Assembly: GCA_023920165.1 (NCBI GenBank)
Contig: CP089277.1
Location: 248,001 to 312,000 of the forward strand
DNA: 64,000 nt
DNA from: Curvularia clavata
Lineage: Eukaryota
Direction: 5' to 3'
The notes under the pieces are model-generated. The model was not told the DNA's origin. It was given only the letters and a program-made list of their open reading frames with translations, and ran no database searches. Made by a program: the position numbers and the translations under genes. Positions within the stretch are counted from its first letter, which is position 1, and each line of letters begins with the position of its first letter. This document shows positions 43,223 through 59,729 of this stretch, piece after piece.

Positions 43223-44139
43223 GGTGGTGCTAAAGGCCCGAACCAGGACGGCGTTTTGGCTTCACTTTAGAGCGGTTCAAAATCAATGACAACTTGATTT
43301 GAGCGGGAGCGCTAGGCAGACACGCTTCAACGGCTGTGGCGGCGCGTGTGGCTGTGTCGGCCCAATAAGTCACGTGGCTGCTTACTCTTCGACTTGGCAA
43401 CTCTGCTTTCATCCCACATCCCATAACACAAAAACCTGATCGATCCAGACGACTCTTTATCCACATCCGACCCTAGTCCGCGCGTACATACATTGATACC
43501 CAAACACTATCGTGCTGCCGTAAACTGGTCTCATCGGCGGCCATACAAAATCCATTGCTGACCCCGAACCCCATCATGCTTCCCTGCGTGTTCCCTCACG
43601 CGCATATTGCATGGCAAGGCGATCCAAAATGCGAGCTCTGAATGACGCGATACCTGATAGAGCGACGGAATGCGAGCCACAACCTCTATGACGGCCCGAG
43701 AACTCAACGTGGGGTGATCTCCACAAAACCCTCAATCACAACACTGTATAAAACCTGTTCAGATGGCAAGCCAGCTTCTATTTGCTCGCGGACCCTTTGC
43801 AACGCCTGTACGAAGTACTGGTGGAGAGTTGATACAAAGGCAAGGTAAGCAGCACCCCCCACCCCAACTCTCTTACCAAGCTCCACCCCCGCGATCCCCA
43901 GTCGGAGCTTGTTTCCAAACAAGCAACGCGGCAAATCAGCCCCGCCGCTCACCCGGCGAACCACTTCACGAGCTCGCCGTGGTCCCAGTCCACCCCAACA
44001 CCCTACGGGGCATGGGGTCGTCTTGTCAAGTCTAGGCTGACGCAAAGCAGTCTACCATGTCATACGACTCTAACCGCCTTGTCTTATTCCACTTGTACCT
44101 CTTTGTCTTCTGAACGCGACATCCGGCACACCCGCCGCA

Positions 44140-45356: not shown

Positions 45357-46607
45357 TCACAATCCAAAGCAATTAGCATAGTACGTAACCGTCGCCGGCC
45401 AGTCCGAAAACATGCCCAAGATACCCACGTCCTGAGCAAGCACATGCAGCACCTCGTACATGTCTCCATCCTTCTTCGTTACATTGGCAACATATTGGTA
45501 GTAGTAGCCCCCACCGCCAATCTGCAGCCATCCGGAGCGCTCAAACGACCACGCAACCATATCGAGGCCATGTTCCTGGCAAGCAAGAGCATACTCGGAT
45601 GGTACAATCTTGCCTGCGTCGTCGAGCTTGGTGAGGGCAAACATGGCGGGCGCCATGATCTTGACGCCGCGAGCAGCCAGGTCGGGGATGCTGGCTGTGG
45701 CGTTTGCGTAGCCTGCAGGCGTGTCGACGCGCTCGTCGAGGTAGACGGCTTGCACGCCGAACTCGGGCTCGTTGTCAATCCAGTAGAAGATGTCGTCGGG
45801 CAGGAAAGACTGGAGCCACACGCGGCTGGGGTCGATCTTGTACTCGCGGAACTTGTCGACGAGATCCTGTGCGTACTGCTCCTGGGTGTAGCCGTCAAAG
45901 GGCATCTTGACCTCGGGCGTCTTGAGTTCGGGCGTGAACTTGAGACCCCAGCTGTCGACTAGAGGAATATACTCGTCGACGGTCATGAGCTTGGGGCAGT
46001 TCTGGGCGTACAGGTCGGTACGGAAGTAGGGTGTTCCATCCATGTACTGCTCAACGGTTGTAGCGTTGGGATTGAAGCTGTCCATCTTTCCACAGAGGGA
46101 GCTGAACTCCTCGAGTGTAATGTCCGAGGTGCAGCATTTAGCCGATGCAGCAGTGCCATTGGCAGCTGGAGAAAAGGGCTTGGTGCACTTCGCAGCGAGT
46201 GGGGTGCTGAGGATGTTGGTCGTTGTGTGCAAATCGCATTGGGCGTGGCGGCAGACAAGTTGCTTGTCCTTGGTGAAGGCGACGTCGCATTCGATAACAC
46301 CAGCACCCATACGATGCGCAGCTTTGTAGCCCTGGAGCGTGTGCTCGGGGAACTGCAGAGGAGCTCCACGATGGGCAAAGACAAAGTCCGAGGTCTCAAA
46401 CTCTTGCTCTGAGCAGCTTTCCAGCTTCTCCTTCAATGGCCCATCGTTCATGTCATCGACCAGGTAGTACGGCCGAGGTCCAACCTGGACATTGAAGTTT
46501 TTTCCATGTCCATGGCCGTGGTGTTGTCCAGTGCGAGATACAACGGCAGGCACAGCAGCAGCGGACGCGAGTCCGAGAAGGACGGAGGTAGTAACGAAAG
46601 AGCGCAT
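45357..46607 (-). CDS. Secreted glycerophosphodiester phosphodiesterase (GDPD), 416 aa
   Basis: Signal peptide and motifs [47 protein letters not shown]. Confidence 0.93.
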
Positions 46608-49264: not shown

Positions 49265-49714
49265 TCAACTCAAATCCGCTACAGCTTCAATCTCAATTCG
49301 CATATTTCTATACAAACCCGCCACCTGCACAGCCGTCATAATCGGCCCGTGGTTCTTACACCTCTCCTTTAGATTACGAACAATAGGCTCGGCTATTTCG
49401 TCGATTGGTACCGCGACATAAACCCGAAGCTTGTACACCTGGTCCCAGCCTTTGCCGCCCGCGTGCTGGATCGCATGTTCGACGTTGTCGAAGGCTTGGT
49501 CAACCTCTTTGGATAGGTCTTTTGGAAACTCTTCTGTATCGCGATCCCAGCCGCCTGTAGCTTGTTAGTGAGTTGCTTCATTCAGATGTGGTGTGGAAGT
49601 ACCTTGGCCGGAGAGTTCAATGAGGTTGCCGATGCGGACGGCCTGGCTGCTGTTGAGGTGCTGTTTGGTGCGTTCGCCGAAGCCAGGGTAGTCGAAGTAC
49701 TGGAGGTGAGACAT
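49265..49714 (-). CDS. Rid/YjgF/YER057c (L-PSP) family protein, YjgH-like; 2 exons, 133 aa
   Basis: Exon 1 49714-49603, intron 49602-49555, exon 2 49554-49265. Product MSHLQYFDYPGFGE..SQAVRIGNLIELSGQGGWD..QAFDNVE..GGKGWDQVYK..HGPIMTAVQVAGL..MRIEIEAVA. The correct frame is absent from the ORF track. Confidence 0.92.
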
Positions 49715-51448
49715 CTCGATTGAGAAGATTTTTTTGTGTATGCAATGGTTCTTGATGAAGAAATGGAGGGTTCAGAAGAGAATGTCGTGACAACGTGACA
49801 GAGTCGCGTCGTCTTATACCTATACAACCAATCCGTGCCACAAGGTAACAGCGACAACCAATTACTAAAATACGCCCGGAATCCTAAGAAGGGCGGGAAA
49901 GAAGGGCGCTGAAGAGGGGTACTTCTTGAACCCTAGTTGCTCTGGCTACTGGCGTCTGGCCACTTCAGCTGCTTCAGCCGCCCTGCATACTAACTACTAG
50001 CTGCCCTAGCTGCTGAGTCCAAGTATTCTCCCAGAGCTAATCAAATCGCTTGTTACTTCTTCCTGGAAGCCACACGGAGTAATTGTAATATGTAGCTCAA
50101 GATGCAATAAGCGTTTACGTCTCGAATGCTACCTACTGTGCAACTAACCGCCACGCCAAGACAATCTCTCTAGGCTCCACTAGGCCCCCCAATGGACCAA
50201 CTCTTGACATTCACCAGAAAGCGAATGTCTCCACACTCCAAGATCTTGGCTTGCGGAGTTAGATGCTATCTCCATTCACGACTCGGGATTTAGGTGCGCT
50301 ATTCCAGATTCCTCCCCAGCGAGATGGATACGCTTACAAATGGCTCTCGAGGTTATGAGCTAATTTTTAAGTATCAGAATAGAAATCGCCTTCTTATGTA
50401 GATCCCAGACTTCTTTGTGCAACACAGAATTTCCAAAAGGCTTGGACTTTGCAATCCATCAAACCCCTCAATTAACCGAGACTAGGCAGCAATGGAATAG
50501 AGTGCCCAGCTTTTGCTCCGGACTACATACTTAGAAGCGCAACTGTACTGCTATGCCGCAGAAGAGATCCGTTGCATCAGATAGTCATAGAGCGTTACGA
50601 ATGAGATGGCAAACGTATTCTTCTAACGAGAATTAACAATCACAACGAATACATCAAAAAGAGTGAGGAATCACAATCTGGCGGCGTGTCACGTCACTTC
50701 AGGTGAATATACCTCTGGAATAAGCGTGCAAATGAACATTAGAATATTGAATCATGGATACTTAGTATCCTAGGTCCAATTAATGCCAATTGCAGACAGA
50801 TTTCATGACGGAGCCGGTACTGAGTATCGGCGACTGGGCGTGGCTGTCAGATGTAGTGAGAGCTTTTAAGTACCGGAAGCGCCCATTAGGCATCAGAAAT
50901 GGTTAATTTTTCTCGGTGTAATTATCAAGCTGTCCAGCATGAGCTTGGTAGTATGTGCTGGAGATGACTTAGTCTCATCGAGCTGTCGGAATGTCAGCGT
51001 AGGGACTGTGAGGGTGTTGAATGTCGAAGTATCGATTATCGAGCTGTTGGAACGCCGGTGGGAGATGTGACTTCTTGTTGGACCGCCGGGCATGTAGCTA
51101 TTAGTCAAACTCGGCGGCATTAAGTGACGCAATGATAGGTTGTGACTGGCTAGTTGCTCATAAATCTTCAGAAAAACCATGTACGGATTCGCCCAGCGAG
51201 TAATGTCGTATTTGCTATTCTAACCTGCCTGCTTATCGCAAGTTTTGTCGAGTAAATGAACAGTTCATGTGGGAAGTTTTTATGTCAAAGCAGCCAGGAA
51301 ATGAATGCCAGTAATCCTCTGTGGAATAAATTTATGGTTCAGATTTCATAATTTCAAGATTTACAGTTACATGCTTTGCATATATGATACATGGAAACGA
51401 CTCTCACACCGTCCGCGTGCGTATATATGTGCCAAAAACACTCACCAT

Positions 51449-51664
51449 CTACTTCTTAGGCGTCTGACTACCAGGGACAAAGACCGAAGCCGTAGCATTC
51501 AGCCCATTGGACGGCTTACTGCCCTGAGAATCGGGCCTAGAGTCTGCAACATTCTGATGGCAACTCCTTTTTTCTGAAGATGTATGTGATGAAATTCCCC
51601 AATCGCTGCCACGGCCAATGCCAAGGATGTTGCGCCAGTTTTGGGAACGTCGATAATTTGACAT
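51449..51664 (-). CDS. Putative 71-aa micro-protein carrying a PAM2-like motif
   Basis: SNGLNATASVFVPG fits the PAM2 pattern LNxxAxxFVP. TATAAA on the minus strand at 51776-51781 with a CA-rich leader. GTGAGT donor-like site 3 nt after the stop. Confidence 0.45.
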   Translation of the reverse strand: MSNYRRSQNWRNILGIGRGSDWGISSHTSSEKRSCHQNVADSRPDSQGSKPSNGLNATASVFVPGSQTPKK

Positions 51665-52070
51665 ACTGGCAGATTCCGGAAGATAGTTTCAAAAACAGAT
51701 TAAGGATCACAGTAGTGGCTTTAGATGATGTTGTGTGTTGAGCTATATGCGCATTTGGTGCAGTGTCTAATCCTGTTTATATATCCGAGGAGCGGCGGTG
51801 AGTGAATGGATCAATTCATCGTATGCGTGAATCCAATCAGAGATACTTTCACAAATAGAAGCAGCAGGTGGCAAGTAAACACATATGACGTGATGCCTTC
51901 ACCAATTCACTGTTGACAGACGTCCGTGCTCTACAAACGCAATTTGTTTGTCTCTACACATCAGCCACATTGTTAGCTCTCACCCACATGATCTTGCTCT
52001 ACTACCATATTTCCTCTATCTACTACAATTCAATTAGGCGTACATAAATCCCAAAATCCCCTACCCTTCC

Positions 52071-52282
52071 ATCGAGCAATAGCTCCCGCCTCAATTGGGT
52101 GGGCCTTCTAGCACAAATAACTAACTTAGGTATTTGGGCTGCAAGCTAGGAGGGGCGCTTGTCGGCCGTAGAACTCATGAGTTCGAATCCGGTGTAAAAC
52201 CATAAATAACCACAAGTTAATCGTGAGTTCGATCCGGAAGGCAGGCGTCGGGGCAGCAGAGGCGTGGAGTCTATTACTTGAT
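52071..52282 (+). ncRNA. Putative structured non-coding RNA or tRNA-derived element (Y-shaped fold, two B-box-like motifs, downstream T-tracts); identity unknown
   Basis: Terminal stem 52071-52092/52259-52282, hairpin 52104-52153 and long hairpin 52156-52247. GTTCGAATCC at 52181 and GTTCGATCC at 52227. T-rich run from ~52284. Confidence 0.45.
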
Positions 52283-52540
52283 ATTTTGCTTCTCTATTCT
52301 TCTTTTCTTTTCTTTTTTGCTTACTTGTATACTATATAGTAAATAAATTAGCGTCTAGTATCTTATATAGTATATAGTTTGCTAAGTAGAAGAGCTTTGT
52401 ATCAAGTAGTCAGAATGCATCTCTGTAACGCTCGCGATATTGCTGAAAGCGGTTAGCCCCCGCGGAGACTTAGTCAACCTCGAATCTTCTCCAAACGGCC
52501 ATCACCAACCGTCAGTACGCTCAATTGCCCAACAACCGCC

Positions 52541-53595
52541 ATGCCGCCCCGGCTCCGCGCTGTCCGCTTCGCCTCGTCGCTGCTCTGCCGGCCATGTGCC
52601 ACCCCGGTGGGCACCAGCTTCCTGCTCCCCACACAGGCCCGCCACGCCTCTATTTTATCCTCGCTCTCTGACAACACCGGCGCATACAACAAAAAGATCC
52701 GACGAGGACGCGGTCCCGCCTCCGGCAAGGGAAAGACAGCAGGACGTGGTCAAAAGGGTCAACACGCACACGGCAAAGTACCTGCTGGATTTGAAGGTGG
52801 TCAGACACCGCAATGGATCACGAATCCCGAGCGAGGTCGTGGAAAGCACAATCCGTTCAAGGTGGAGATGTCGCCGGTGAATCTAGATAGGATACAGAGT
52901 TGGATTGATCAGGGGCGATTGGACCCCAAGAAGCCGATTACGATGAAGGAGTTGGCCAAGTCGCGGTGCTTGCATGGGGTTAAGAGACATGGAGTGAAGC
53001 TTTTGGCGAGGGTATGGGAAGACCTATCCTAACTACAAAGAAGATGTGCAACAGAAGAGCTAATTTTATGTGCTAGAATCCCGAACAACTCACCACGCCC
53101 ATCCACATTGTCGTCTCGCGGGCGTCTGCAGAAGCCATCGCACGTATCGAAGCGCTTGGCGGCAGCGTAACCACGCGCTTCTACTCTCCCACTGCCATCA
53201 AGCGTGTGCTACGCGGAGAAACGCACCCTACCATCTCTCTACAAGCCTCGCCGTCCCTCGTCGCGCTCACAACCCCCACCACGCCCGCCGTCAAAATCGC
53301 CTCCCCGATCTTATCTGCCTTGCAATCCGCCGCCGACGACAAGAAGCGCGAGGCCATGGCCGCCGTGATGAAGCAAGTCGGCGAAAAGTACAAGTACAGA
53401 TTACCGGATGCTACGTCCAGAAAGGATATAGAGTATTATCGTGATCCGGCGCATAGGGGGTACCTGACGTATACGGTTAAGCAAGGGGAGAGCCCGAGTT
53501 TGTTCTTTAAGCCGCCGGGTGAGGCGAAGGATAGGAAGAGGCAGAGTGCGAGAAAGGACGCGGCCAAGGCGAGTGCGGATAATAGGTTGTTCTAG
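52541..53595 (+). CDS. MRPL10: Mitochondrial large-subunit ribosomal protein uL15m (yeast MrpL10); 2 exons, ~329 aa
   Basis: Arg-rich presequence, RGRGPASGKGKTAGRGQKGQ, GFEGGQTP and EYYRDPAHRGYL. Intron 53012-53076. Confidence 0.95.
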
Positions 53596-58369: not shown

Positions 58370-59729
58370 ACATAGACACAGACAGGCTCTTGCTCACGCA
58401 CCACATGGGCAATATGGGCACACGGCCAATATGCGTTTTGTCAGGGGCGTTCTGCAGTGCAGATTGCCTCAACTTGTTCACTCGGACGGGCGTGAATAGT
58501 AGCAAACTTGTCTAGCGTCGGGGGCTGCGGGTGACGCGATTCGCCAGAGACAGCCTGAGCCTGGCATGGCATGCCATGGCCGAGGGGGATGCAGCGGTCT
58601 GGGGGGTCCACTTGATTGCAAGTCACACGAAGCACCAAGGGCAAAGAAAAAAAGAGGATGGACGATCATCAGCAGCCAAAACTCGAAGCCTGCAAAGCGT
58701 CGCGTTGGACAGGGTTTGGGCTCGGATTTAGGGCATGGTTAGGGTAAAGTAAGACCGCTGAGTCCGCTAGGCCGCGGCCTGGGCTGCTGGCTTCGTATCG
58801 CGTCTGAGCAGGAGGGTGGTGGTCGTGGTAATGGTGGTGGTGGCAGCACACGACGGCTTTTTGCGTGCCGGGCAACCAGCCTGCAGCACGGCCACTCACA
58901 GGCGGTGCTGCCAGACGACACGGCATGGGCGGAGATGAAGCCAGCCAGCTGCTGCTGCTGCGCCTGCCGTCGACGACGACATATGGATGAGTGAGACGAC
59001 GGCGACGACGACGAAGACGACGAGCAGCAGAGTCATGATGATGATGACGTTGACCATACAATGACAACGACGATGATGGCCGAGTTATTATTGTCGTGTT
59101 ATTATTGATTGCTCCATTGCCCATGGCATGGTATGGCATGCCATGGATGCGCTGCTGCACGGCCTCGCACGACGCCATCCGCAGGCTATCTAATCAGCAT
59201 CCATTCATATGCGCTTACTGGTGCTGGCAAAAAGTTACACTGTCGACTGGCCAGAGTCGGGCGGTGCAGCTGTGCCGTTGTCGCAGCACGGCTGAGACTG
59301 CAGGCAGGGCGCAGGCCTTCCATGTAAGTATTGTCTATAGCATGTATCTAGACACGTACATTTGTTGATGCTTCACCGAGTCTGGGCTGCCATCATGGCC
59401 TTGGACGCGTGCACCAATGCATTGCGTGCTGAGACGACCCAATCACGGCCCATGTTAGGCCCTGAGGCTGTCTGGCGCGGCGCAGCTGGCCCTCGGTCGA
59501 CGGCTGGCTTAGTGCGTCGTGGCCCAGGGATGCTTTCTTCACGCCATCTGACCCGCCAGGCCCGTCGTCGCCTCTGGCTTTACTTTAGATTTGGGTCAAG
59601 CGACGGCGTGCGTCGACACACGAGGCGCTGAGGTGAGTGCCGCAGTCATCCACTGACTCTGACTGACCACACTACACGGCGCACACACACGCCGCTAGCC
59701 GTGCAGCCTCGACGATCCGGTCGGCTGTT

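What the first reader, a model, noticed from the sequence alone, without database searches (positions are those of the whole stretch)
52071..52320. Unidentified ~210-nt Y-shaped structured element with two Pol III B-box-like motifs and T-tracts
Seen: (a) terminal stem ATCGAGCAATAG-CTCC-CGCCTC / GAGGCG-T-GGAG-T-CTATTACTTGAT; (b) hairpin CCTTCTAGC..CAAATA.CTA/TAG.TATTTG..GCTAGGAGG; (c) long hairpin CGCTTGTC/GGCAGGCG, GG/AA internal loop, CCG/CGG, GAACTCATGA/TCGTGAGTTC. Non-canonical pairs within the inner helices are all G-U on the + strand (A-C on the minus), as expected for a selected RNA fold. GAACTCATGAGTTC (52171-52184) is also a perfect palindrome, so one segment has two alternative partners, as in a switch. 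GAGTTCGAATCCGG and GAGTTCGATCCGG match the B-box, TAGCACAAATAA (52109) is a weak A-box, and T-runs follow. It does not fold as a tRNA, and I find no diagnostic motifs of 5S, U1-U6, RNase P/MRP, SRP or the TPP riboswitch. Inference: a novel Pol III ncRNA, or a SINE/MITE-like element, ~260 bp upstream of MRPL10.
Basis: partly seen in the sequence, partly recalled or inferred. Interest (0 to 1): 0.7.

Follow-up and report, generated by a model that had tools for sequence, protein, structure and literature searches.

The report
Lineage-specific foldback DNA between divergent genes

Summary
The listed helices exist. Window 52071-52285 folds to -82.2 kcal/mol on the + strand (z -4.89 against shuffles). 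It is the best-folding 215-nt window of 1594 on that strand, but only by a narrow margin (GC-corrected z -2.57).

The Y shape depends on where the RNA is cut. With 30-45 nt more on each side, the closing stem falls from pair probability 0.96-1.00 to 0.00. Its 3' arm then pairs with 52387-52412 in a second foldback.

The Pol III reading has no support. There is no tRNA and no Rfam match, and no A box. B-box look-alikes are no more common than chance, 7 seen against 13.4 expected.

The "switch" is a 46-nt-period duplication, and a divergent copy in a public run lacks it. The element is absent from 70 related loci.

It lies between two start codons that face apart (51664 on the - strand, 52541 on the + strand).

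Best reading: lineage-restricted foldback DNA. About 15% remains for a + strand RNA hairpin. Copy number and transcription could not be tested.

The parts
52071..52092 (+). 5' arm of closing stem a
   Evidence: Pairs with 52259-52282 in the fold of 52071-52285. Pair probability is 0.96-1.00 only for that exact cut and 0.00 in longer contexts.
52259..52282 (+). 3' arm of stem a; it has a second, competing partner downstream
   Evidence: In the 391-nt fold it pairs with 52387-52412 instead. Inverted repeat I7, 52275-52296 with 52387-52408, is 73% complementary.
52104..52153 (+). Hairpin b (9-bp lower stem, 6-bp upper stem, 3-bp tip)
   Evidence: -14.3 kcal/mol, z -2.01 on the + strand and -1.13 on the - strand. 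The upper stem is robust (0.88-0.92); the lower stem is not (0.04-0.33 in longer contexts). A divergent copy in run X7 has 7 and 6 extra letters at the tip.
52154..52249 (+). Hairpin c (10 + 3 + 10 bp, 40-nt apical loop), the only robust long-range structure
   Evidence: -36.5 kcal/mol, z -4.81 on the + strand; -21.1 kcal/mol, z -0.40 on the - strand. Four of its 23 pairs are G-U. Pair probability 0.58-0.99 in all contexts. Rank 11 of 5326 windows of 96 nt.
52171..52184 (.). Perfect 14-nt palindrome GAACTCATGAGTTC
   Evidence: The self reverse-complement match is 100% over 14 nt.
52175..52238 (+). Direct duplication with a 46-nt period: TCATGAGTTCGAATCCGG at 52175-52192 and TCGTGAGTTCGATCCGG at 52221-52237. 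It carries both B-box-like words and creates the 'two alternative partners'.
   Evidence: Repeat family D3, extended by eye to 17 of 18 positions with one gap. In the divergent copy in X7, 52167-52224 is replaced by 15 letters, so only one copy is present there (tables 5 and 5c).
52257..52427 (+). Second foldback, overlapping the 3' arm of stem a and enclosing a pyrimidine tract and AT-rich palindromes
   Evidence: the 391-nt fold gives -123.7 kcal/mol, z -6.19. Inverted repeats I2-I6. The weak Rfam chance matches at 52312-52397 fall here.
52284..52318 (+). Pyrimidine tract with T4 (52284-52287) and T6 (52313-52318)
   Evidence: Read. Low-complexity: many unrelated contigs pile up here in runs X7, X14 and X16 (table 2).
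51452..51664 (-). Conserved 71-codon ORF pointing away from the element (left neighbour)
   Evidence: tblastx matches to related loci fall in one frame. In alignment A1 of 7 sequences the start codon and the KK-stop are invariant. No Pfam family.
52541..53008 (+). Exon 1 of the uL15m (MRPL10) gene (right neighbour)
   Evidence: Translation. 100% identical over 156 aa to a protein that NCBI names 54S ribosomal protein L10, mitochondrial, with PF00828.

Best explanation
The region from 52071 to about 52427 is a lineage-restricted cluster of inverted and direct DNA repeats (foldback DNA). It lies in the 876-nt spacer between two genes that point apart: a conserved 71-codon ORF with its ATG at 51664 on the - strand, and the uL15m gene with its ATG at 52541 on the + strand.

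It was probably built by DNA-level events: an inverted duplication or an old foldback or MITE-like insertion, followed by a 46-nt-period direct duplication and by indels at the hairpin tips.

It is not a Pol III gene. The B-box-like words are a duplicated chance match. The 'switch' is a by-product of that duplication. The Y shape is one of several competing ways to pair three related arms.

Shown here: the repeats, the competing pairings, the duplication, the lack of promoter and family matches, and the absence from related loci. Inferred: the DNA-level origin and the lack of a dedicated RNA function.
For: 1. Stem a has pair probability 0.96-1.00 only for the exact cut 52071-52285. It is 0.00 in four longer contexts.
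2. The 3' arm of stem a pairs with 52387-52412 in the 391-nt fold, giving a second foldback.
3. The alternative partners come from a direct duplication of 17 of 18 nt with a 46-nt period.
  - A divergent copy in run X7 has 15 letters in place of 52167-52224 and keeps only one copy.
  - That copy also has 7 + 6 extra letters at the tip of hairpin b.
  - Run X16 shows a 10-nt and a 1-nt deletion in the loops.
4. Known families and promoter motifs do not match.
  - 0 tRNA genes.
  - 0 Rfam matches at gathering score, and none inside the element at E up to 10.
  - The best A-box match has 3 of 9 specified positions wrong.
  - B-box look-alikes: 7 seen against 13.4 expected.
5. The element was not found in 70 related loci.
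  - blastn found 0 matches. blastn-short found only words of 12-20 nt.
  - A covariance model of hairpin c matched only the window itself in 422,421 bases.
  - In 12 of the 13 of those loci that I scanned, no 215-nt window upstream of the gene reached GC-corrected z -2.
6. Against real sequence the structure is top-ranked but not an outlier.
  - z -2.57 at 215 nt, against -2.32 for the next window.
  - Hairpin c ranks 11 of 5326.
  - Its strand asymmetry of 15.4 kcal/mol ranks 160 of 5326 by size.
7. In run X16, a contig over 52160-52257 differs at 5 of 98 letters. One over the flank 51907-52057 differs at 9 of 151. So the element changes about as fast as its flank, if both contigs come from one genome (table 8).
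Against: 1. Non-Watson-Crick oppositions of the transition type favour the + strand 7 to 1: seven G-U against one C.A.
  - Hairpin c folds at z -4.81 on the + strand but -0.40 on the - strand.
  - A neutral DNA palindrome should decay evenly on both strands. The two-sided binomial p is about 0.07 (my arithmetic).
2. In the divergent X7 copy, the base of hairpin c and the second B-box-like word are kept, and the listed indels lie at hairpin tips or junctions. That is also what a constrained RNA hairpin would show.
3. No target-site duplication and no second copy were seen, so a mobile origin is not shown either.
4. The 70 related loci are distant: at most 87% amino-acid and about 77% nucleotide identity in the gene. 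No intergenic sequence aligns at that distance, so absence there cannot tell a young insertion from a fast-evolving RNA.
5. Genome-wide copy number and transcription were not testable.
Confidence: 0.58

Rival explanations
1. Hairpin c, with or without b, is a functional + strand RNA structure in a lineage-specific transcript made by any polymerase. Examples would be an unannotated small ncRNA or an upstream or promoter-associated transcript of the uL15m gene.
For: - Hairpin c folds at z -4.81 on the + strand and -0.40 on the - strand.
- There are 7 G-U pairs against 1 C.A mismatch.
- Hairpin c keeps pair probability 0.58-0.99 in every context tested.
- In the divergent X7 copy the base of c is kept while the tip is replaced. 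The CCG of the middle helix reads as TTG-like letters that could still pair through G-U (tables 5 and 5c; my reading).
Against: - The strand asymmetry is about 2 SD of what 96-nt windows of this same DNA show (rank 160 of 5326 by size), and hairpin c ranks 11th, not 1st.
- No Rfam family matches.
- By eye I find no H/ACA or C/D box layout.
- The covariance model finds no homologue in 70 related loci.
- Large indels and a duplication separate close relatives.
- The X7 copy may be from another organism or be a paralogue. The tool warns about joints with a side under 30 letters, and here the side is 28.
Confidence: 0.15
2. It is an RNA polymerase III gene with an internal A box and B box, ending at the T run after the closing stem.
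For: - B-box-like words lie at 52180 (1 mismatch) and 52226 (2 mismatches). The second is kept in the X7 copy.
- A T4 run starts 2 nt after stem a, and a T6 run lies 31 nt after it.
Against: - B-box look-alikes with up to 1 mismatch: 7 in the window against 13.4 expected; 98 of 100 shuffles have at least 7.
- The A box is missing.
- The words are not flanked by a T-stem, and there is no tRNA-like fold.
- A start site placed by any A-box-like site would lie inside the element and would leave out the 5' arm of stem a (inference from the usual spacing, recalled).
- T4 is a weak terminator in yeasts (recalled).
Confidence: 0.04
3. It is a B-box-only TFIIIC binding site, like the ETC sites of yeast, acting on DNA as a boundary between the two genes that point apart.
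For: - The element lies in a divergent intergene.
- It carries two B-box-like words.
- Yeast ETC sites share a B-box-like consensus, and six of the eight lie between divergently transcribed genes (PMC3395662; passages read).
Against: - The B-box resemblance is at chance frequency.
- Yeast ETC sites have a conserved 10-base 3' extension. No such consensus is known to me for this fungal order.
- One of the two words is a recent duplicate that the X7 copy lacks.
Confidence: 0.05
4. It is a member of a dispersed MITE or SINE family, a true mobile element present in many copies elsewhere in the genome.
For: - Terminal inverted repeat of about 22 bp: stem a has 21 pairs plus one mismatch and two bulges.
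- Size of about 212 bp.
- The divergent X7 copy begins with the same 15 letters at 13 of 15 positions (table 7).
Against: - No direct repeat flanks the ends (by eye).
- No second copy was found in the 64-kb window or in about 358 kb of related loci.
- Contigs of three runs cross the borders into unique flank without a break: X14 record 1 at the 5' border, and X7 record 17 and X16 record 11 at the 3' border (table 8).
Confidence: 0.1
5. It is a chance accumulation of complementary words in an AT/GC-mixed promoter spacer, with no common origin of the arms.
For: The GC-corrected rank is only narrowly first (z -2.57 against -2.32). Ten 96-nt windows on the + strand fold better than hairpin c.
Against: - 0 of 200 shuffles reach the fold, and 0 of 100 for the 391-nt stretch.
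- There is a 14-nt perfect palindrome, a 17-of-18 direct duplication and two 10-bp helices within 100 nt.
Confidence: 0.08

Closest known systems
Foldback elements and MITEs of fungi, for example the mimp elements of Fusarium (recalled, not checked in a paper here)
   Same: About 200 bp, non-coding, closed by an inverted repeat of about 22 bp, sits in a promoter spacer, restricted to a narrow lineage.
   Different: No target-site duplication and no second copy were found in anything I could search. The inside is two further hairpins plus a direct duplication, not a simple spacer. The 3' arm has a second partner downstream.
RNA polymerase III type-2 genes and tRNA-derived SINEs
   Same: Two words resemble the B box (GGTTCGANNCC, recalled consensus), and T runs follow.
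   Different: No A box. No cloverleaf or tRNA score. The B-box resemblance is at chance frequency. No flanking T-stem.
ETC (extra TFIIIC) sites of Saccharomyces cerevisiae and COC sites of Schizosaccharomyces pombe (PMC3395662; passages read)
   Same: A B-box-like word in a spacer between genes that point apart.
   Different: The extended ETC consensus was not tested, because none is known to me for this order. There are no binding data. One of the two words is a lineage-specific duplicate.
Nested palindromic intergenic inserts of bacteria reported earlier in this scan (e1-710721, e1-866683)
   Same: 200-300-nt nested hairpin DNA that close relatives lack. It was first read as a structured RNA and then judged to be DNA-level palindromic inserts.
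   Different: Those are bacterial. This one is in a fungal nuclear genome. There is no sequence relation.

Membership tests
Pol III type-2 gene (internal promoter) | A box (TRGCNNAGTGG, recalled) near the 5' end | tested here: not met
The best + strand match in 52030-52300 has 3 of 9 specified positions wrong. Three or fewer mismatches occur at 1115 of 63990 window positions.
Pol III type-2 gene (internal promoter) | B box (GGTTCGANNCC, recalled) downstream of the A box | tested here: inconclusive
   52180 has 1 mismatch and 52226 has 2. But matches with up to 1 mismatch number 7 in the window against 13.4 expected by chance.
Pol III type-2 gene (internal promoter) | Run of T as terminator just after the RNA | tested here: met
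   T4 at 52284-52287 and T6 at 52313-52318. This is weak evidence, because the runs are part of a 35-nt pyrimidine tract.
Pol III type-2 gene (internal promoter) | A discrete transcript, with Pol III or TFIIIC occupancy | not testable with these tools
   No listed run is on record as RNA. There are no ChIP data.
tRNA or tRNA-derived SINE | Cloverleaf or tRNA-model score | tested here: not met
   ARAGORN finds 0 genes in the window. No tRNA match at E up to 10 in 51900-52450.
tRNA or tRNA-derived SINE | Many dispersed copies | tested here: inconclusive
   No second copy in the window or in 70 related loci. Contigs cross both borders. No whole genome is held.
MITE | Terminal inverted repeats | tested here: met
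   Stem a, 52071-52092 with 52259-52282: 21 pairs, one C.A mismatch and two bulged T.
MITE | Target-site duplication flanking the repeats | tested here: not met
   The left flank ends in CCTTCC and the right flank begins with ATTTTG. No direct repeat appears at any nearby register (by eye).
MITE | A family of copies elsewhere in the genome | tested here: inconclusive
   The terminal 15-mer pattern with up to 3 mismatches gives 8 matches against 6.3 expected, and only the element itself at 0 mismatches. There is no genome to search.
Any Rfam 15 family | Covariance-model score at or above the gathering score | tested here: not met
   0 matches in the whole window. At E up to 10 there are four matches, all at 52312-52397 and all far below gathering score; the best is 18.5 bits against 80.
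H/ACA or C/D box snoRNA | Hinge with an ANANNA box and an ACA 3 nt from the end, or C (RUGAUGA) and D (CUGA) boxes beside a terminal stem (recalled) | tested here: not met
   By eye: hairpins b and c abut with no hinge (52153/52154), no ACA follows c, and there are no RUGAUGA or CUGA words in 52071-52285. No tool was run for this.
ETC / TFIIIC-only site | B-box-like word in a divergent intergene | tested here: met
   The two start codons face apart at 51664 (-) and 52541 (+). The words are at 52180 and 52226. The resemblance is at chance frequency.
ETC / TFIIIC-only site | Extended conserved consensus, and TFIIIC binding without Pol III (PMC3395662) | not testable with these tools
   No consensus for this fungal order and no binding data are at hand.

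The most novel reading that the evidence does not exclude
Hairpin c (52154-52249), perhaps together with b, is a selected + strand RNA structure of a genus-specific, unannotated small RNA or promoter-upstream transcript next to a mitochondrial ribosomal protein gene. On this reading:
- its base is kept in relatives while its tip expands by duplication;
- G-U pairs are tolerated and A.C mismatches are purged;
- the kept B-box-like word may recruit TFIIIC.
Probability: 0.15. Interest if true: 0.5.

Novelty: new member of a known kind. Interest (0 to 1): 0.18.

Why it matters
If the best reading holds, this matters little for biology. It is one more example of promoter spacers in filamentous fungi gaining short foldback DNA that looks like a structured RNA when cut at the right ends.

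It does carry three cautions for this kind of scan:
- z-scores against shuffles (-4.9) overstate how unusual a fold is compared with real neighbouring sequence (-2.6);
- a closing stem should be tested in longer contexts;
- short promoter-box look-alikes should be counted against chance.

If the minority reading holds, it would be a genus-specific small RNA, or a TFIIIC site, beside a mitochondrial ribosomal protein gene in a plant-associated fungus that occasionally infects people. That would be of moderate interest.

Tried and rejected
- Whole-genome copy count: no genome is held for this window, so it was not done.
- RNA evidence:
  - No listed holder is on record as RNA.
  - The one run laid that is guessed to be RNA (X19) has a long contig that begins at 52536. 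It also has a single read-length contig of depth 2 over 52042-52192.
  - Four other runs guessed to be RNA under the same species label hold next to none of the words.
  - I draw nothing from any of this about expression.
- Orthologue comparison: the one metagenome scan gave 70 loci, but the nearest are only 87% amino-acid and about 77% nucleotide identical in the gene. No intergenic sequence aligns apart from the small ORF and the RidA-like gene. No covariation test was possible.
- Structural analogue in relatives: of 13 of those loci scanned, only L011 has a strongly folding window upstream of the gene (GC-corrected z -3.05). Against shuffles it is z -3.15 with 1 of 100 shuffles as good, and it shares no sequence with the element. 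I set it aside.
- A 21-nt word of hairpin c:
  - It has 5 exact matches in prokaryote genomes. They share nothing beyond the word, hold no tRNA gene, and look like codon-driven chance.
  - It has 0 matches in viral contigs.
- Short direct repeats D4-D9 (9-11 nt with a mismatch): by my estimate these are at chance level, so I did not use them as target-site duplications.
- A 5' UTR intron or introner reading (GTGAGT at 52224, ACTAAC at 52120): rejected. The X19 contig over the gene ends at 52536 with no loose end or joint listed, and the motifs are in the wrong order or spacing. This was checked by eye only.
- Literature:
  - 1,748 papers hold at least 2 of the 4 terms. None of the 15 listed contains the MITE phrase.
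  - the search brought up repeat surveys of other Dothideomycetes. I saw the listings only and read none.
  - I therefore make no claim about what is in print on repeats of this genus.
- Earlier findings of this scan: nothing on this genome or on look-alike sequence.
- First sliding-fold script: it timed out. I repeated it with a coarser step.

Full report
WHAT IS THERE

The window is fungal nuclear DNA. Exon 1 of the gene to the right (52541-53008, + strand) is 100% identical over 156 residues to a protein that NCBI names 54S ribosomal protein L10, mitochondrial, of Curvularia clavata. The next best match is 89%, from Bipolaris oryzae.

The element begins at 52071 and its closing stem ends at 52282, 259 nt before that gene's ATG.

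On the left, tblastx and a 7-sequence alignment show a conserved 71-codon ORF on the minus strand. Its start codon is at 51664, and both the start codon and the stop are invariant. It has no Pfam family.

So the element lies in an 876-nt spacer between two genes that point apart. Further left is a RidA-like gene (PF01042), which is also upstream of the uL15m gene in two related loci.

CHECKING THE OBSERVATION

The minus strand gives -68.6 kcal/mol and z -3.92.

The fold has 68 pairs, 7 of them G-U. There is one C.A mismatch in the closing stem and one A.G mismatch in hairpin b.

These details are also as described:
- the 14-nt palindrome at 52171-52184;
- the two B-box-like words at 52180 and 52226;
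- the T runs, T4 at 52284 and T6 at 52313.

HOW UNUSUAL IT IS

Against shuffles the fold is very unusual. Against real sequence from the same 64 kb it is much less so.
- Among 1594 windows of 215 nt, the element ranks first on the + strand. Its GC-corrected z is -2.57, the runner-up has -2.32, and the best minus-strand window has -2.47.
- Hairpin c alone ranks 11th of 5326 windows of 96 nt.

THE Y SHAPE DEPENDS ON THE CUT

Pair probabilities were computed in five contexts.
- Stem a has 0.96-1.00 only for the exact cut 52071-52285. It has 0.00 in 52040-52330 and in the three longer stretches.
- The lower stem of b drops to 0.04-0.33.
- Hairpin c (0.58-0.99) and the upper stem of b (0.88-0.92) are robust.

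In the 391-nt fold (z -6.19) the 3' arm of stem a pairs with 52387-52412 instead. That makes a second foldback, which encloses the pyrimidine tract and the AT-rich palindromes (inverted repeats I2-I7).

The structured region therefore runs from 52071 to about 52427. It has three related arms that compete with one another, not one closed RNA domain.

THE "SWITCH"

The segment GAACTC... has two partners because about 17 nt are present twice, 46 nt apart: TCATGAGTTCGAATCCGG and TCGTGAGTTCGATCCGG (family D3, extended by eye). Both B-box-like words are these two copies.

Public contigs laid on the region show a divergent copy in run X7 (tables 4, 5, 5c and 7).
- 52167-52224 is replaced by 15 letters, so only one copy remains there.
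- 7 and 6 extra letters sit at the tip of hairpin b.
- The copy starts with the same 15 letters as ours at 13 of 15 positions.

Run X16 shows a 10-nt deletion and an A>G change in the apical loop of c, and a 1-nt deletion in the loop of b.

The tool warns that joints with a side under 30 letters in metagenomes may come from other organisms or repeats. Here the side is 28. So this copy may be an orthologue in a related species or a paralogue.

Either way, the duplication, and with it the "switch", is not a conserved feature.

THE POL III READING

- ARAGORN finds no tRNA gene in the window.
- Rfam 15 gives nothing at gathering score. At E up to 10 it gives only four chance-level matches, all in the AT-rich palindromes at 52312-52397.
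- B-box look-alikes with up to one mismatch occur 7 times in the window, against 13.4 expected. Of 100 shuffles, 98 have at least 7.
- No + strand site in 52030-52300 is closer than 3 mismatches in 9 to the A box.
- By eye there is no H/ACA or C/D box layout.

Both consensus motifs are recalled, not taken from a call.

THE MOBILE-ELEMENT READING

- The ends form a 21-pair inverted repeat, but I see no flanking direct repeat.
- No second copy is in the window or in 70 related loci.
- Contigs cross the 5' border (X14 record 1) and the 3' border (X7 record 17, X16 record 11) into unique flank without a break. A young multi-copy repeat would make that unlikely. This step is an inference from how such assemblies behave.
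- Genome-wide copy number could not be tested.

RELATIVES

The one metagenome scan returned 70 loci that encode the same protein, at best 87% amino-acid and about 77% nucleotide identity.
- None holds the element by blastn. blastn-short gives only words of 12-20 nt.
- A covariance model of hairpin c finds only the window itself in 422,421 bases.
- I scanned 13 of the 70 loci by sliding fold. In 12 of them no upstream window reaches GC-corrected z -2. The exception, L011, is unrelated in sequence.

At this distance nothing else in the spacer aligns either, so the absence says "not ancient" rather than "not functional".

In X16, a contig over 52160-52257 differs at 5 of 98 letters and one over the flank 51907-52057 at 9 of 151. 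If both come from one genome, the element changes about as fast as its flank.

WHAT SPEAKS FOR AN RNA

- Hairpin c is strongly strand-asymmetric: z -4.81 on the + strand against -0.40 on the - strand.
- Transition-type oppositions favour the + strand 7 to 1. The two-sided binomial p is about 0.07 by my arithmetic.
- The divergent copy keeps the base of c and changes its tip.

Against this, a + minus - energy difference of 15.4 kcal/mol is about 2 SD of what 96-nt windows of this DNA show (rank 160 of 5326 by size). A reader who scans one strand with G-U allowed will also tend to find exactly such cases.

I keep about 15% for a selected + strand RNA hairpin. I keep about 5% for a TFIIIC-only (ETC-like) site, which in yeast also tends to lie between genes that point apart (PMC3395662, passages read).

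VERDICT

The hairpins are real, but the interpretation as a Pol III ncRNA is not supported.

The most likely explanation (0.58) is lineage-restricted foldback DNA in a shared promoter. It would have been built by inverted and direct duplication and reshaped by indels at the hairpin tips. Whether it began as a mobile insertion is open.

Novelty is low: a new member of a known kind. Interest is 0.18.

The decisive tests are a genome-wide copy count, an alignment of close relatives with a covariation test, and total-RNA sequencing. None could be run here.

Noticed in passing
window 51452-51664 (-): A 71-codon ORF (it begins MSNYRRSQNW and ends KK-stop) is conserved in six related metagenome loci, with invariant start and stop. 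It has no Pfam family and may be an unannotated small protein gene.
   Followed up: partly
window 52452-52489 (+): A motif of the form TTAG-N-CCCCGCGG, followed by TCGAATCTTC-like letters, lies 50-90 nt before the uL15m ATG. It recurs at the same place in L001 and L008. It is probably the conserved core promoter or a factor site of this gene (by eye).
   Followed up: no
window 52319-52400: AT-rich nested palindromes (TATACTATATAGTA... / ...TATATAGTATA). They draw the only weak Rfam matches, which are miRNA and CRISPR-repeat models far below gathering score.
   Followed up: partly
window 59054-59160 (+), 45890-46010 (+), 43922-44017 (-), 50162-50280 (-): These 96-nt windows fold better than hairpin c after GC correction (z -3.0 to -3.8). 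The one at 50162 overlaps the 50216-50271 palindrome. None was examined further.
   Followed up: no
L011 460-800 (+): A G-rich, strongly folding stretch lies 200-500 nt upstream of the uL15m gene in one related locus (-141.9 kcal/mol, z -3.15). It is unrelated in sequence to the element.
   Followed up: partly
window 49265-49564 (-): An exon of a RidA/L-PSP family gene (PF01042, E 3.6e-11). The same gene lies upstream of uL15m in L004 and L032, so the gene order is kept.
   Followed up: partly
L071-L075: The 21-nt word GAGTTCGATCCGGAAGGCAGG occurs exactly in five unrelated prokaryote genome records, against well under one expected by my estimate. Nothing beyond the word is shared. It reads as codons for EFDPEGR, so this is probably codon-driven chance.
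   Followed up: partly
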